From Girardia tigrina (Eukaryota): a DNA stretch of 58,961 bases. Made by a program: the position numbers. The stretch lies in NCBI GenBank assembly GCA_001938485.1, contig MQRK01254793.1, forward strand, positions 1-58,961, read 5' to 3'. Shown piece by piece: positions 18,944 through 24,900 of the stretch. Numbering within the stretch: position 1 is the stretch's first letter; each line of letters starts with the position of its first letter.

Positions 18944-21900
18944 GGTTATGACTTTTTTAATCTGTCTTCCTGGAGCTTCAAATGAGGAACTTGTACCTAT
19001 TTATGACGAATATATCTTTTATTTCAATCACAGCTACAAAAAGTTGGCGCACCCAACACAAAATGCGGACTAAACCAAACTTAACTATTTACCAAAATAT
19101 CAATATAATTACGATAGCGTGTGTTTATATGTGTACATTCATGTTAATAAATTTCAGATTAAGATATTTTTAATTTTGGACGTCATATAAATGTTTTCCA
19201 TGGTCTTCACAGCTCTCTCGGCTACAATGTTTGATCAAGGAACATCAATAACCGAGGGTGCGTAGGCAGGATGGTGAGTTTGGGAGGAGGTCTGTAAATG
19301 CACGGACATGAGTAAAGAGACCCCCGAGAATGACTGCGAGCTGAACAACAAATAAGTGATAACCCAGAAGTACGAAAGGTCACACGAACTCACCCGAGAA
19401 TATGTAAAGCCGGAAAAACGGTGACAATGTAATGCATCGTCCATAGAGTACATCCCGTCCCGGAATTACTCGAAGAACGTCGCCAGTAACCTTTAAAAAC
19501 CCTTGAAAGAATCTACAAAACAAGAATAAAATTGTAGTTAATTAACAAAATTAATTACAGTGATTCAATCATCATATGATTGCGAGACATCTACGGATGC
19601 ACGACGCACTAAAATCCGATTCATCCTAAATAATCAATTACTAAAATGTCCGCCGAACAATAAGTAACTTACCGAACTTAACATCGCAGTAATCACAGCC
19701 GTACACTAACTGGCACCGATAAACCTCGCAGCTGTCTGTCGTTACAGACGATTGATAAATTTCGTTGATTGCAGACGAACCTGCATAGGCATCGACACAG
19801 AGAGGCAAACATCCGTCTGCAATAAATAAATAACGACATAACGGCCTGATTATAATCTCGTTCAAGTGATAAACAACCAGTTAAGATGAATTATATTGGT
19901 TACGAATCATACAATCATGTTTCCCCCCTTTCTCCTGACACTAAACAGGATACCGAGGTGCATAATTGATGATCTTACAATAGACAGCGAGTAATCGTAA
20001 TAAAAAAATAGTTACAACGAAATGCGACATTTAACCGAAACGTTAACGAATAAGATTTATGAACGAACACGAACACGAAGTTGTGTAGGAAGTCTCGAGA
20101 ATCTCGGATTTTGTACACCCGTTCGCGGTATAAATAGCGAATTCATTTCGCTTAAGCACTCAGTATTTTATGGCACAAATTCTTGGCACAATTTTTATAA
20201 CCTAGTTAGAACTAGACAAACTTATTGCACCATTATATTTACAACGCACATTTGATTTCATTAATTTTCGTTAATTATATTTCAATCGGACAGAATTTTA
20301 GAAGTATGAGTTTGTTCGTTATATGTTTATCAACTTATTATTTTTGTTAATATCAATAAATTTTAGTTATAGATAATATATTTAGTTTTATTATTTTTAT
20401 AATTTTATTTGTCCATTATCAAAATATCATTGGTCTTTCTGTCGTCCCGAGATTAATTGCGACTTACTGATTATGTATTCAGGAAAAATAAAATTGAACA
20501 AAGAGCGAAGTTTAGAAGTAAACTTGGGAGTTCGATTCGAGGTGTGGGGAAATTATAATACGTCCCCCTGGCCTTGGTGGGTAATCATGGTTCGCTATCG
20601 CCACTGTAGATAGATTCGATGTGTAAATAGGTTTAGGTTATTTCATATAACAGTTGAGATAGATATTGCCTTGAAATGTTAAATATACTGCTGAGCATAA
20701 CTTTTAAAACACATGTCATTTTGGTAGCTTCAAAGGACACATGCCTTTAATCGCGTAATTATGGTATTAATAATATTATTTATTTGTAATAATTAAAGTC
20801 AAGTATGTAATATTATAATAATCCTTGTTTAAATAATACAATCAAGTTAATATGAAATGGCGCAAGTTAATAAAAAATGAGCATATTTTTTAAAACATCT
20901 TGGAGCGGAGAATTGCCAATTTTGACAGAACATTTATTTTGCCAGTTTCAGTGTATAAAATAAAATACATGATTAAATAATTAAATTAGTAAATTGGAAT
21001 AATTAAATAAATTAAATTAAAATAATTAAATAAAAATAATAAATTAAATTAAATAAAAATTAATAAATAAAATAAATAATTTAAATAAATAATTAAATAT
21101 CATTAAATATCAGTCAGTCACATTCGAAAACAAGGCGAGCTTTGTGCATTGGCAGTGGTTTTGTTTGCATTGCATAATTGCATTGAAACAAGTCACAAAT
21201 ATTGATTTTTTTGGTGTATAATTGAGTGGTGAGCCTCATTGTTATTGTGTCAGTGGATTTTCTCTGCCAATGTGGGTATGTCTCTTTTTTTGTGAATGTG
21301 ATTGCGTGTTTGTGTGCGTGATAAGGTGTTCATTAGTTAAAGTGTGTGTGTATGTGTGTTGAATGTTAATTTGTGAATTATAATCACAATTAACAATTTT
21401 CAATTTGTCATATGTCAATTTTTCAATCCAATTAAAAACAATTTAAAAATGAAATCGTTCTTGCTCTTTTTGAACACAATTTAAAAAATTTTGGATAAAC
21501 AAGTGTCGTTAAAAAATAAAAGATGTCCTTGTGTCAATTTCAATTGTTTTCAATTCCAATTTTTTAAGTACAAAAGAGTTGTATTTCGAATTTTTGAGAA
21601 AAATGTCAATTTATTTTTTTTTAAATAATTTGAATCGAACGAACGAGAGGAATAAATTGATAAACGAAATGGCCGATAGAGAAACGAAAGTGTATAGAGT
21701 TAAATTAGCTGAATGGGCTGAGAGATATGATGGAGTGGTTGATGCGATGAGAGATGTCGCTAAAATGACCGGCGAATTGAACATGGAAGAGCGTGACTTG
21801 TTATCCGTAGCATATAAAAACGTAATCGGAAGTCGAAGAGCGTCGTGGAGGATGATGAGTAGCATCGAACAAAAAGATCCTTCTCGACTTCCACTGATTA

Positions 21901-24900
21901 AAGCCTACCGAAGTCAAATTGAAAGAGAATTGAAAGAAGTCTGCGCTGATATAATAGCCTTACTCGATGAGTTCTTGTTGGTGGCTTCAAATGGTGGTGA
22001 AGCTAAAGTGTTTTTCTTAAAAATGAAAGGCGATTACTACCGTTTTCTGTCAACCTCTCTTCCTAAAATATCGTGGAGACACGGTTTCCTGTCCAATCTT
22101 TTTAAAATTTTGTAATGATAGTTTATTTAATTAATTGTTTATATTATTTTATTTATTATTATATGGTATAAATTTATTTTAAAAAATTTATGAGATCAAT
22201 TGAAGAGAAAAGTTTAGCTAGAGCTTGGAAATATGAATGATTAAGTTATGCAGAAATAGCCAAACGCTTGAAAATTTCAAGGAATTCTGTAATTAATTTA
22301 TGTTATTATGATAATAAAGTAATGCCTAAGAAACGTGAACCAAAATTTATTATTAATAAAAGAAATAAAGTACTTATAAAACGAAAAATTAGCCAATTAA
22401 AAAATAACGGCAAGGGGTAAATTCAACAAAATTAAAAAATGAATGTGATCTAAATGTTTCCGTTTGGACAATTCAACGGCACATTAGAAGAATGGGTTTC
22501 AAGTATAAAAACGTTACAACAAAAATTTATTTAACCAAAAAGCATAAAGAAAAACGTGTGGAAATGATAAATAATTGGATCCGTTAAAATCAACATTGGG
22601 AGAAAACGATATTCAGTGACGAGAAGTGATTCAATTTAGACGGGCCAGATGATTGGAAGACTTGCACTACAAAAAACGAAGAAGCACATAGACAGAGAAG
22701 GCAATGTAGAGGAGGAAGCATAATGGTTTGGCTTATGACTTTACCAAACGGTTTATTGTCATATAAAGTCATTAGTGGTAAATTCAACTCAGATGCTTAC
22801 ATACATATGTTGCAAAATAATATTGTGCCATTTTTGAAATTGAATTTCGGCGATGATTTTTGGCTACAGGAGGATGATGCCTCAGTTTATAAGTTCTACA
22901 AAGTAAAAGAATTTTTGAAGAGCAGCTCAATCCAAATCTTAGATTGACCAGCTAAGAGTCCCGACCTAAATATTGTCGAGGATATTTGGAAATTAATATC
23001 AGATCAAGTTTATGATGGTCCTCAATACATCAATACAGTTAAATTGACAGAAAAACTGAAAAATGTTATTGATGAAATAAATTGATGCCAACGTCAAAAG
23101 GTGTTAGATCTATATGAATCAGTTAAAGGACGTTTATGTACAGTTTTACACAAAAAAGGTGCTTTGTACAATAAGTGATGTTTTCATGGTAAATACATGG
23201 TGTTTTAAAAATTGTGCTCTGTTTGAATTTCAGGTATTATCATTTTTCAATTTTCACTGCACCCAGTATTATTTATTTAAATATCGAGCTACTCATTTTC
23301 GCATTTTATAATACTACCATTCTTCTAAATAATAGTATAAACCATAAAATAATATGGAATCCTCATATTTCTAAAATTAGAGGTGTTTTAAAAATTATGC
23401 TCACCAGTATAGATTTTAATAATTATTAGTAACTTTAGTATGGTATTTTCCTACCTGATTTGATTACTGATTTTACAATTTCTTTCATTATTCAAGACAG
23501 TGTTCATAAATTAGCATTTCAGGTACGGCTTAATATTTTCCCTTAATAGTTTAAAGTTTTTTGGTTTAACATTCTCTCTAATGACTTAGTAAGTTTATTT
23601 AACGATCTCCTTCAATATTTTAGTAATAATTTGTGATGGATACTTTTCATAACGATCTAATGTTTCCTTAATGGTTTCATTATATTTAGTATTGAGTATT
23701 TTCATAATGATTTAACATCTTCCTTATAGGCTTAAAGTCTGGTGACCCAGCCTTATCGGCCGAAACTCATCGTTACCAATCCCCATAATGATCGACGTTA
23801 ATCTTAATTTCCAAAAATTGACAACAATTTGATCTATAGTTATTTGAAAATTATTACTTGGTTTATTTAATAAATGGTTTGGCTGAATTTTTCAAAGAAT
23901 TGTCTACAAGAAAATGTATAATGAATAATAATGGTTATCGAGATTTTTCGATTCCTAATAATTACTTCTCGAGTAGGCTTTGAAACCTAGTGTGGCACAA
24001 AAGTCGAATTCCTGTTTATCTCTTCGTACAAATTGGTTGATTTAAAATTAGAAAGCATAATAGATACTGAATATCGGGATTTTAGAGATCAAATCGTTTT
24101 GATTACAAATTTAATTCAAAAGAGATTGACTGAAAAAATCATATTTCTGTATTAAAAGATTAATAAAAAATAATCACAATATTTTGCAACGAGAATCCTT
24201 CATCATTTGTTGACAATTTTTTTAGTCAGAATATATTAATTATGTCTTGTTATCTTTGAATAAACTTAACCCCCGTCGAATATCTACCCCTTGACGTAAG
24301 AACAAATAAACCTGCGGATAACATGATAAATGTTAATCTTAACTCGGACTGTTGCGGCAGCAGCGCAGTGGAAGCGTTTAACACATCCCGTCCTCCCGCG
24401 GGGTATCAAGGGGAGGGAAGTGGGTTCGATTTTTTGATTGTTGTTGCTTATTTTATTATTGTCATTATTTTTATTCTTATTATTTATATTGATCTTATTT
24501 TCATTAGTGATATACTCAATTTTATTATTTTTAATTTCATTATCTTTATTTATGTTTCTATCATTATTCATATATACATATAATACGCAAATATATATAA
24601 ATATATACCCGACATATTCAGCACCACAAATGTCCGTATCCGTCGGTTCTGACCACAACAAATCAATTAGAGGTCCTTCCAATGGAGTATCGATCGGTCT
24701 TTCAACTCCGTGACAACAGAAGATCTCGTCTCCAATCACCGCCACATTCGGCAGATAATTACACATATTGACCAACGTTTCCCACAATTTTATATTATAA
24801 CGACGTTTACATTCATCATAAAACCCGTAGATTATCGTTACGTCCTGACTTTCGTGATTACCCCGTAACAGATAGAAACCATTCGGATATTTGAGTTTAT

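What the first reader, a model, noticed from the sequence alone, without database searches (positions are those of the whole stretch)
20686..23409. Tc1 transposon carrying a captured, truncated 14-3-3 gene (Pack-TIR-like)
Seen: matching Tc1 ends, each with an outer and an inner repeat about 185 bp apart, enclose 2.72 kb. Between the left end and the transposase ATG (22190) lies about 1.1 kb of foreign DNA containing an intronless, stop-free 14-3-3 ORF that stops matching the family after KGDYYR. Known: Tc1 elements are usually about 1.6-1.7 kb. In 14-3-3, helices 1-4 mediate dimerisation and the phosphopeptide groove also needs C-terminal helices. Inference: a host signalling gene was captured by a transposase-bearing element. 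If expressed, the product could dimerise but not bind clients, acting as a dominant negative; the groove Tyr also reads Phe here.
Basis: partly seen in the sequence, partly recalled or inferred. Interest (0 to 1): 0.8.

Follow-up and report, generated by a model that had tools for sequence, protein, structure and literature searches.

The report
Dead Tc1 transposon holding 14-3-3 fragment
A broken copy of a jumping gene carries the front half of a host signalling gene inside it, a kind of accidental gene-fragment capture already described in animals, and nothing here shows that the fragment is in use.

Summary
A 2724-bp Tc1-type element (20686-23409) has TA on both flanks. Each end carries an outer and an inner repeat, 186 and 183 bp apart. 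All 4 window matches to the repeat core are these four sites (0.01 expected). The transposase gene (22190-23178) covers residues 1-329 of 329-aa relatives and keeps DD34E spacing, but it is broken by 5 in-frame stops and 1 frameshift. Between the left inner repeat and its ATG lie 1289 bp. Of these, 396 bp (21657-22052) match the 5' leader and first 131 codons of a 14-3-3 epsilon-like gene (85% identical to the closest protein). That is helices 1-5 of nine. No C-terminal half lies anywhere in the window. The fragment's own changes hit conserved columns as often as variable ones, it has a 4-codon deletion, and its stop-free state is not significant. The best reading is a DNA-level filler capture into a Tc1 copy, as in the Pack-TIRs known from animals (115 of 370 are Tc1/mariner), now decaying. 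Copy number, parental gene, cargo-free copies, junction microhomology and expression could not be checked, because no eukaryotic DNA collection was open. A nested element or a composite of two insertions remains possible. The dominant-negative idea has no support.

The parts
20686..23409 (+). Whole Tc1-type element with two repeats per end (2724 bp), flanked by TA at 20684-20685 and 23410-23411
20686..20722 (+). Left outer terminal repeat
   Evidence: (I1, D11)
20878..20900 (+). Left inner repeat, direct copy of the outer core, 186 bp downstream of it
   Evidence: (D11, I14, I8)
20901..20974 (.). Unassigned 74 bp after the inner repeat. It may be the element's own leader.
   Evidence: No match.
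20975..21109 (.). A-rich tandem array (period 23/37, 3% GC) on the left of the cargo
   Evidence: It is the best inverted match in the window to 22124-22157.
21110..21656 (.). Unique non-coding DNA upstream of the 14-3-3 stretch. It could be the upstream region of the parental gene (inference only).
   Evidence: No Pfam family at E up to 0.01 for 5 ORF pieces of this stretch (best E 0.077; the sixth piece in that call is the ORF tail at 22053-22112). No Rfam match. No second copy in the window.
21657..22052 (+). Stretch homologous to a 14-3-3 epsilon-like gene: 4 leader codons plus codons 1-128 of the ORF, equal to residues 2-137 of P0001. It covers helices 1-5 of the nine-helix fold.
21669..22115 (+). 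Open reading frame of 148 codons plus stop. Residues 1-128 are 14-3-3. Residues 129-148 are an unrelated tail modelled at pLDDT below 50.
22053..22121 (.). Unique 69 bp after the end of homology. It encodes the unrelated ORF tail and is followed by stops in a row. There is no canonical GT at the point where homology ends.
22122..22164 (.). T-rich array on the right of the cargo, inverted relative to the A-rich array
   Evidence: (I2-I5)
22190..23178 (+). Tc1-type transposase gene. It is full-length (residues 1-329 of 329-aa relatives, about 65% identity) but broken by 5 in-frame stops and 1 frameshift.
23199..23219 (-). Right inner repeat
   Evidence: (D8, I21, I8)
23373..23409 (-). Right outer terminal repeat
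   Evidence: (I1, D8)

Best explanation
This is one copy of a Tc1-type (DD34E) DNA transposon with two repeats per end. About 1.2 kb of filler DNA has been copied into its leader, between the left end repeats and the transposase start. The filler holds the 5' leader and first 131 codons of a host 14-3-3 epsilon-like gene, probably with some of that gene's upstream DNA.

The most likely mechanism is inferred, not shown. A double-strand break in an AT-rich, palindrome-like stretch of the element was repaired by synthesis that switched to the 14-3-3 locus as template and back. This is the gap-filling route described for animal Pack-TIRs. The breakpoint in the host gene lies where repair stopped, not at a splice site or a poly(A) tail.

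The transposase gene of this copy is dead, and the 14-3-3 fragment shows the pattern of a young pseudogene. The composite is therefore best read as a decaying by-product of repair with no function of its own.

Shown: the ends, the broken full-length transposase gene, the truncated 14-3-3 stretch, and the relaxed pattern of change. Inferred: the order of events, the repair mechanism, and the extent of the foreign DNA.
For: - One element: all 4 window matches to the repeat core are the four expected sites (0.01 expected). The spacing is the same on both sides, 186 and 183 bp, and both flanks are TA.
- Transposase: 7 of 7 relatives tested align over two frames from 22190 to 23112-23175. P0122 covers 1-329 of 329. 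The count is 5 stops with five of the queries and 6 with two, where the pieces overlap.
- Family: DD34E spacing of 84/34 in the window copy and in 7 of 10 relatives tested. HTH_Tnp_Tc3_2 scores 32.7 bits against a cut-off of 31.5.
- Host fragment: 115 of 136 residues identical to P0001, including 3 of 4 leader codons.
- Truncation: none of the four 14-3-3 queries finds a C-terminal half in the window. The best other hit has E 0.42.
- Not a retrocopy: the 3' half and any poly(A) run are missing.
- No target duplication beyond chance around the block: the longest shared word is 9 nt, reached by 193 of 1000 shuffles.
- AT-rich arrays flank the block in inverted order. Their 29 of 34 match is the best in the window and is reached by 2 of 300 or 10 of 300 shuffles.
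- Relaxed constraint: the ORF departs from the family-wide residue at 13 of 68 columns that are at least 95% conserved. P0001 departs at 7 of 68, the median of 117 others is 0, and 0 of those 117 departs as often. Private changes are 5 of 64 against 4 of 54.
- Precedent: 370 Pack-TIRs in 100 animal genomes, 115 of them Tc1/mariner. Single-copy ones arise mostly by transposition-independent gap filling, and breakpoints are skewed towards internal fragile sites (PMC8277862, abstract and passages).
- Size: 12 of the 13 relatives' longest contigs are 881-2628 nt. Four of these, at 1489-1590 nt, hold proteins of 306-329 aa. This is a weak hint that the family is normally about 1.5-1.6 kb.
Against: - No cargo-free copy, no parental 14-3-3 locus and no second copy could be examined. 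There is none in the window, and no eukaryotic DNA collection was open.
- The borders of the foreign DNA, microhomology at the junctions and copy number are therefore unknown.
- The inverted AT-rich arrays could instead be the ends of a nested element. They could also owe much to composition, since 10 of 300 shuffles reach the match when only the right array is shuffled.
- The spacers between the outer and inner repeats are not alike on the two sides. TA flanks are uninformative for Tc1. One single insertion is thus the parsimonious reading but is not proven.
- The constraint test rests on 9 private changes.
- The stop-free ORF of 148 codons is compatible with some constraint, since P(0) of 0.11-0.18 is not 1.
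Confidence: 0.55

Rival explanations
1. Nested insertion. The block from the A-rich array to the T-rich array (about 20975-22164) is a separate non-autonomous mobile element with AT-rich inverted ends. It already carried the 14-3-3 fragment and later landed in a dead Tc1 copy.
For: The two arrays are each other's best inverted match in the whole window, 29 of 34. Only 2 of 300 shuffles reach that when both arrays are shuffled. The Tc1 copy is dead. The window is rich in other mobile elements.
Against: The block has no clean matching termini. The arrays pair in several registers, as low-complexity DNA does (I2-I5, I11). There is no target duplication beyond chance. There is no second copy of the block in the window. 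No transposase or known family is tied to such ends.
Confidence: 0.15
2. Composite of two events. The left end belongs to one Tc1 insertion and the transposase plus right end to another. Host DNA, including a truncated 14-3-3 pseudogene, is trapped between them after deletions.
For: The spacers between the outer and inner repeats are unlike on the two sides. TA flanks carry no information for Tc1. The outer arms differ at 5 of 39 positions. Other host-gene fragments (PP1-like phosphatase pieces) lie nearby in this element-rich stretch.
Against: This needs two insertions of the same family in the same orientation, plus two deletions that remove exactly one right end and one left end and leave a full-length gene starting at its ATG. 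The repeat core occurs only 4 times in the window, in the pattern of one element.
Confidence: 0.1
3. The captured ORF is expressed and makes a five-helix 14-3-3 half that pairs with host 14-3-3 but cannot hold clients, acting as a dominant negative, perhaps spread by the element.
For: The ORF is open for 148 codons in 30% GC DNA. It keeps the leader and about 0.55 kb of upstream DNA. The model folds into the first five helices at pLDDT 83-92, except the last homologous block at 79, and superposes on solved 14-3-3 proteins with TM 0.79 by query length. The family-invariant Lys and Arg residues of helix 3 are present. That helices 1-4 form the dimer interface is recalled knowledge, not tested here.
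Against: Private changes do not avoid conserved columns: 5 of 64 against 4 of 54. The ORF departs from the family-wide residue at 13 of 68 conserved columns, against a median of 0. It has a 4-codon deletion. Openness is not significant. None of the 120 listed proteins, out of 2971 hits, matches the tail or exceeds 87% identity, so there is no sign of a conserved truncated form. There are no expression data. The carrier cannot move by its own enzyme.
Confidence: 0.04
4. Assembly artefact. Reads from a Tc1 family and from a 14-3-3 locus were joined wrongly through the AT-rich arrays.
For: Low-complexity AT arrays sit on both sides of the cargo. The window has five N runs, so it is a scaffolded draft.
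Against: There is no N inside 20686-23409. The 14-3-3 stretch differs from its closest relatives and is truncated away from the arrays, 69 bp before the right one. A chimera would need two wrong joins in the right order and orientation.
Confidence: 0.05

Closest known systems
Pack-TIRs of the Tc1/mariner superfamily in animals (Tan et al. 2021, PMC8277862; abstract and passages read, supplements not seen)
   Same: Non-transposon host DNA sits between the ends of a terminal-inverted-repeat transposon. The paper counts 115 of 370 cases as Tc1/mariner. It reports an excess of exonic fragments and finds that most single-copy cases come from transposition-independent gap filling at internal breakpoints.
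   Different: Here the whole transposase gene is kept beside the cargo, broken though it is, so the cargo looks added rather than swapped in for a gap. The parental copy, copy number and breakpoint microhomology, which define the paper's cases, could not be examined.
Turmoil-1 of C. elegans, transduplication of two coding fragments (Sela et al. 2008, PMC2572040; abstract read)
   Same: An animal DNA transposon that has taken up pieces of host protein-coding genes, one of them a recognisable domain.
   Different: There the fragments lie inside the terminal inverted repeats and are shared by the family. Here a single fragment lies in the leader of one copy, and nothing shows it to be shared by a family.
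Tc1-like elements with two transposase-binding repeats per end (IR/DR type; recalled from the literature on fish and other Tc1-like elements)
   Same: TA flanks, an outer and an inner repeat about 185 bp apart on each side, and a transposase of about 330 residues with an HTH region and DD34E spacing.
   Different: This copy is 2724 bp, against about 1.6 kb recalled for such elements. The ATG lies 1289 bp after the inner repeat, whereas the stop lies only 20 bp before the right inner repeat. The gene is broken.
Processed pseudogene (retrocopy) of a host gene
   Same: A continuous, apparently intron-free piece of coding sequence away from its gene, evolving without clear constraint.
   Different: It lacks the 3' half, has no poly(A) run and has no target duplication beyond chance. 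It keeps the 5' leader, which is the opposite of the usual 5' truncation.
14-3-3 epsilon proteins
   Same: Residues 1-128 align with residues 1-133 of solved 14-3-3 epsilon at E 4.8e-43. The closest protein, P0001, is 85% identical.
   Different: Only profile positions 2-124 of 223 and five of nine helices are present. The Tyr next to the groove Arg reads Phe. There is a 4-residue deletion, and conserved columns are changed.

Membership tests
Tc1/mariner superfamily, Tc1-type (DD34E) element with two repeats per end | TA target duplication at both flanks | tested here: met
   TA at 20684-20685 and 23410-23411. This is weak evidence by itself, since the termini also begin with TA.
Tc1/mariner superfamily, Tc1-type (DD34E) element with two repeats per end | Terminal inverted repeats with an outer and an inner copy of a binding-site-like core on each side | tested here: met
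   Arms of 39 nt at 87%. All 4 core matches in the window are these sites, with 0.01 expected. Spacings are 186 and 183 bp.
Tc1/mariner superfamily, Tc1-type (DD34E) element with two repeats per end | Transposase with an N-terminal HTH region and a DDE domain, with 34 residues between the second Asp and the Glu | tested here: met
   HTH_Tnp_Tc3_2 scores 32.7 bits against a cut-off of 31.5. DDE_3 scores only 20.1 against 28.6 in the one piece that matched. Among the relatives, 12 of 13 carry DDE_3 and 7 of 13 carry both domains. Spacing is 84/34 in the window copy and in 7 of 10 relatives, and 34 in 8 of 10; two did not fit my motif patterns. That these residues are the catalytic ones is recalled knowledge.
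Tc1/mariner superfamily, Tc1-type (DD34E) element with two repeats per end | Intact transposase reading frame (autonomous copy) | tested here: not met
   5 in-frame stops and 1 frameshift over full-length coverage.
Pack-TIR (Tan et al. 2021) | Non-transposon host sequence enclosed by the ends of one TIR element | tested here: met
   396 bp of 14-3-3 homology lie inside 20686-23409.
Pack-TIR (Tan et al. 2021) | A parental copy of the captured sequence elsewhere in the same genome | not testable with these tools
   No eukaryotic genome collection was open. The closest proteins, P0001-P0003 (85-87%), come from unnamed sources. There is no other copy in the window.
Pack-TIR (Tan et al. 2021) | A reference element without the cargo, which fixes the breakpoints and any microhomology | not testable with these tools
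   There is no second copy in the window. Two scans of genome contigs gave no relative. The relatives are known only as proteins.
14-3-3 protein family | Complete 14-3-3 domain (nine helices; Pfam profile of 223 positions) | tested here: not met
   Profile positions 2-124 only. The model has five family helices and then a tail at pLDDT below 50. No C-terminal half lies in the window.
14-3-3 protein family | Family-invariant residues of the N-terminal half kept | tested here: inconclusive
   35 columns are invariant across the ORF and 28 relatives. However, the ORF departs from the family-wide residue at 13 of 68 columns that are at least 95% conserved, and the groove Tyr reads Phe.
Processed retrocopy | 3' end of the mRNA with a poly(A) tail and flanking target duplication | tested here: not met
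   The 3' half is absent. A T-rich array, not an A-rich one, follows the fragment. Shared direct words are no longer than chance.

The most novel reading that the evidence does not exclude
The composite is, or recently was, a mobile multi-copy Tc1 lineage that carries, with its own upstream DNA, an expressed five-helix 14-3-3 dimerisation half. That would make it a transposon-borne decoy that pairs with host 14-3-3 proteins and dampens phosphorylation-dependent signalling, and this copy would be one decayed member. My evidence does not exclude this. Copy number, expression and the parental gene were all out of reach, and the ORF is still open.
Probability: 0.04. Interest if true: 0.7.

Novelty: new member of a known kind. 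Interest (0 to 1): 0.25.

Why it matters
As it stands, this is one more animal-type example of a DNA transposon that has picked up a host gene fragment. It is a little unusual in keeping the full transposase gene beside the cargo, and in the inverted AT-rich arrays that bracket the cargo. Those arrays hint at a palindrome-like fragile site as the point of capture. If genome-wide data showed several copies with the same junctions, it would be a rare case of a coding fragment with its leader travelling on a Tc1 element, and a natural test case for how such captures arise. If the copy is single, it is routine genome debris and matters mainly for annotation. The ORF should not be called a 14-3-3 gene, and the transposase should be marked as a pseudogene.

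Tried and rejected
- Second copy of the element or cargo in the window: none. Only the self hit and the end repeats appear. The flanks are unique.
- C-terminal half of 14-3-3 in the window, as a later exon: none. The best other hit has E 0.42.
- Splice-site reading of the truncation: rejected. Homology runs three residues past the only nearby GT and ends without a GT.
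- RNA genes in or near the element: no Rfam match at E up to 1 in 20400-23700, and no tRNA.
- Coding content in the rest of the cargo: no Pfam family at E up to 0.01 for 6 pieces; best E 0.077.
- Target duplication around the cargo block: not beyond chance.
- DNA of cargo-free relatives: the scan with an alignment of 8 of the 13 relatives matched 42 stretches, none confirmed. The scan with the end repeat found one 21-nt match in a Parabacteroides record, with no transposase, so it is a chance match.
- Host taxon: unresolved. A Tctex-1-like ORF found no relatives. The two Atlas look-ups gave only generic Tc1-like and 14-3-3 clusters. The named 14-3-3 proteins closest to the ORF reach only about 55-62% identity and include rotifers, a brachiopod, arthropods and a fungus.
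I used stop-free stretches by reference instead.
- Selection on the ORF from its openness: rejected as not significant.
- Variant genetic code as the reason for the stops: not pursued residue by residue. It is set aside because a frameshift is present too, the relatives were predicted as uninterrupted proteins, and the 14-3-3 stretch has no in-frame stop.
- Literature: 'Pack-TIR' gave 3 papers. 'Tc1 / gene capture / transposase / host gene fragment' gave 56 papers, 10 listed. '14-3-3 / Tc1 / transduplication' gave 278 papers, 10 listed. None of the listed titles reports a 14-3-3 fragment in a transposon. The supplementary list of the 370 Pack-TIRs was not seen.

Full report
**The window**

The window is 58961 bases at about 30% GC, with five N runs. 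None of the N runs lies in the finding, and I left all of them as they are. Nothing made me take the window for human. No spliced gene model was needed, because the 14-3-3 stretch is one continuous piece, so there was no exon-joining step to take or to leave out.

**Checking the observation: the ends**

- The stretch 20686-23409 is bounded by inverted arms of 39 nt at 87% complementarity, counting the TA on each flank (I1).
- On each side a second copy of the same core lies inward in direct order: 186 bp away on the left (90% identity) and 183 bp on the right (95%) (D11 and D8).
- A 19-letter pattern with three free positions, drawn from these repeats, matches the window 4 times. All 4 are these sites in the expected orientation, with 0.01 matches expected and 0 of 100 shuffles reaching 4.
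- When the two ends are aligned they agree at the outer and inner repeats, but the spacer between them is not alike.

The end architecture is therefore real and far beyond chance.

**The transposase gene**

- I tested 7 of the 13 relatives found. All seven align to the window in two pieces in two frames, starting at 22190 and ending at 23112-23175.
- The 329-residue relatives are covered from residue 1 to 329 at about 61-65% identity.
- The gene (22190-23178) is full-length but broken by 5 in-frame stops and 1 frameshift. Two of the seven queries count 6 stops, because their two pieces overlap.
- Four stop-free stretches were scanned against Pfam. One reaches HTH_Tnp_Tc3_2 above its cut-off (32.7 against 31.5 bits). 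One matches DDE_3 below its cut-off (20.1 against 28.6). One has only weak helix-turn-helix hits. One has no family.
- That last stretch, 105 residues long, still finds 13 proteins at E up to 0.001 among 55 candidates. The best is 75% identical. Of the 13, 12 carry DDE_3 and 7 carry both domains.
- The spacing between the presumed catalytic residues is 84 and 34 in the window copy and in 7 of 10 relatives tested. An eighth shows the 34 only, and two did not fit my motif patterns.

This is the Tc1-type DD34E arrangement. That these residues are the catalytic ones is recalled knowledge, not something tested here.

**The 14-3-3 stretch**

- The ORF 21669-22115 (148 codons) matches Pfam 14-3-3 at E 2.9e-42, over profile positions 2-124 of 223. 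It matches solved 14-3-3 epsilon chains over their residues 1-133 at E 4.8e-43.
- In the large protein collection, 2971 proteins score E up to 0.001 among 2982 candidates. The three closest are P0001, P0002 and P0003, all from unnamed sources, at 85-87% identity. The named proteins among the 120 listed reach about 55-62%.
- None of the 120 listed covers more than 86% of the query. Nothing therefore matches the last 20 residues.
- Against P0001 the match is 115 of 136 residues, with one 4-residue gap. It begins 4 codons before the ATG, where 3 of 4 codons are identical to an in-frame extension of P0001. It ends three residues after KGDYYR, with F-L-S against Y-L-S.
- The copy therefore includes some 5' leader. 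It ends inside coding sequence at 22052, with no GT at that point.
- I used 4 of the 120 proteins as tblastn queries against the whole window. The only hit better than E 0.42 is this stretch, so the strongly conserved C-terminal half is nowhere within 21 kb upstream or 37 kb downstream.
- A model built with 28 of the relatives has mean pLDDT 81, five helices (2-16, 20-32, 39-69, 71-106, 110-129) and a tail from 131 at pLDDT below 50. It superposes on solved 14-3-3 proteins at TM 0.79 by query length and 0.52 by target length.

The fragment is the first five of nine helices.

**The rest of the 1289 bp between the left inner repeat and the ATG**

In order, this stretch holds:
- 74 unassigned bases;
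- an A-rich tandem array at 20975-21109 (3% GC);
- 547 bp of unique DNA;
- the 14-3-3 stretch;
- 69 bp of unique DNA;
- a T-rich array at 22122-22164;
- 25 bp before the ATG.

The unique parts match no Pfam family at E up to 0.01 (best E 0.077), no Rfam family at E up to 1 and no other place in the window.

The two arrays are inverted relative to each other. Their best 34-mer match is 29 of 34, which is the best inverted partner the left array has anywhere in the window; only one other place reaches 27. That match is reached by 2 of 300 shuffles of both arrays, or by 10 of 300 shuffles of the right one alone.

Short direct words shared across the two junction regions are no longer than chance: 9 nt, reached by 193 of 1000 shuffles. 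The block therefore has no detectable target duplication. No poly(A) run follows the fragment.

**Is the fragment under constraint?**

I used all 120 listed homologues of the 2971 hits.
- The ORF departs from the family-wide residue at 13 of 68 columns that are at least 95% conserved. P0001 departs at 7 of 68, the median of the 117 others is 0, and 0 of those 117 departs as often.
- Changes private to the ORF, where P0001 and P0002 agree with each other, number 9. Five fall in 64 strongly conserved columns and 4 in 54 variable ones, so the rates are equal.
- Changes private to P0001 are 1 of 64 against 5 of 54. Those private to P0002 are 1 of 64 against 3 of 54.
- The numbers are small, but the direction is that of a sequence no longer under the family's constraint. 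A 4-codon deletion points the same way.
- The open frame is not evidence of selection. Scaling the transposase's 5 stops by stop-prone codons predicts 1.7-1.8 stops in the 14-3-3 part, giving P(0) of 0.16-0.18, or 0.11-0.12 when the frameshift is counted.
- The same figures mean that the cargo cannot be dated relative to the death of the transposase.

**What it most likely is**

The parsimonious reading is one Tc1-type copy whose leader received about 1.2 kb of filler DNA copied from a 14-3-3 locus at the DNA level.
- A retrocopy does not fit. The 3' half and the poly(A) are missing, while the 5' leader is kept.
- A host gene hit by a transposon does not fit either. The fragment lies between the element's own ends, and the other half of the gene is absent.
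- Tan et al. (PMC8277862; I read the abstract and the passages found) describe 370 such 'Pack-TIRs' in 100 animal genomes. Of these, 115 are Tc1/mariner.
- They report that single-copy cases arise mostly by transposition-independent gap filling with template switching. Microhomology is present at one or both breakpoints in 67.6% of cases, and breakpoints are skewed towards internal fragile sites.
- The inverted AT-rich arrays that bracket the cargo suggest such a site. A palindrome-like AT-rich stretch may have broken in its middle and been filled from an ectopic template. That step is inference.
- Sela et al. (PMC2572040; abstract read) give an earlier animal case of coding fragments taken up by a DNA transposon.

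**What stayed open**

I therefore could not look for the parental gene, for cargo-free or cargo-bearing copies, for the DNA behind P0001-P0003 or behind the transposase relatives, or for reads.
One matched 42 pattern stretches and confirmed none. The other gave one chance 21-nt match.
- A weak hint on size: 12 of the 13 relatives' longest contigs are 881-2628 nt, and four of 1489-1590 nt hold 306-329-residue proteins. This fits a normal family length near 1.5-1.6 kb.
- P0002 leaves the 14-3-3 family after KMKG, nine residues before the window's ORF does. Without its DNA I cannot tell whether that is an intron read through, a chimera or another truncated copy.
- The host taxon is unresolved.
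- The supplementary tables of PMC8277862, which list the individual cases, were not seen. They may bear on whether a transposase-retaining case or a 14-3-3 capture is already recorded.
- My three literature searches on the theme listed no paper on a 14-3-3 fragment in a transposon.

**Verdict**

The anatomy is that of a Pack-TIR-like capture in a Tc1-type element. However, the element is dead, and the fragment behaves like a pseudogene.
- The dominant-negative idea rests on nothing but the open frame.
- This is a new member of a known kind, of modest interest unless genome-wide data show a multi-copy, expressed lineage.

Noticed in passing
Direct repeats of 113 nt at 96% lie at 32602-32714 and 36012-36124. 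Between them are ORFs with a gag-type zinc knuckle (33017-33481), DUF7047 (34035-34847) and integrase domains below cut-off (34822-35682). GC is 44-52% against about 30% around it. It holds the 200-N run. Described only.
   Followed up: partly
window 8814-9353 (+), next to the N run 8249-8671: A mariner-type transposase ORF: Pfam Transposase_1 at E 7.2e-26, with DDE_3 below cut-off. It belongs to a different family from the element of the finding.
   Followed up: no
window 18054-18410 (+) and about 1934-2191 (-): Further weak DDE_3 / Tc1-like transposase remnants. They are not copies of the finding's element at the DNA level.
   Followed up: no
window 24287-25204 (-) and 31970-32329 (+): Two PP1-like phosphatase (Metallophos) fragments. 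The first holds a 91-N run and an Asn-rich tail. The second lies in a 129-nt tandem duplication at 31943-32198. They are more host-gene fragments in this transposon-rich stretch, which makes a lone 14-3-3 fragment less special.
   Followed up: partly
window 45975-46364 (-): An ORF with a hAT-family C-terminal dimerisation domain, E 5.1e-14.
   Followed up: no
window 54466-54580 (+): A 5S rRNA gene, 45 bits against a gathering score of 38. It is the only Rfam match in the window.
   Followed up: no
window 37154-37738 (+) and 50672-51112 (+): A Tctex-1-like ORF with a long N-terminal extension found no relatives in the word-based protein search. There is also a FLYWCH zinc-finger ORF.
   Followed up: partly
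P0002 (protein from an unnamed source): This 177-residue 14-3-3 relative, 87% identical to the ORF, leaves the family after KMKG and continues with an unrelated Pro/Ala/Arg-rich tail. It may be an intron read through, a chimera or another truncated copy.
   Followed up: no
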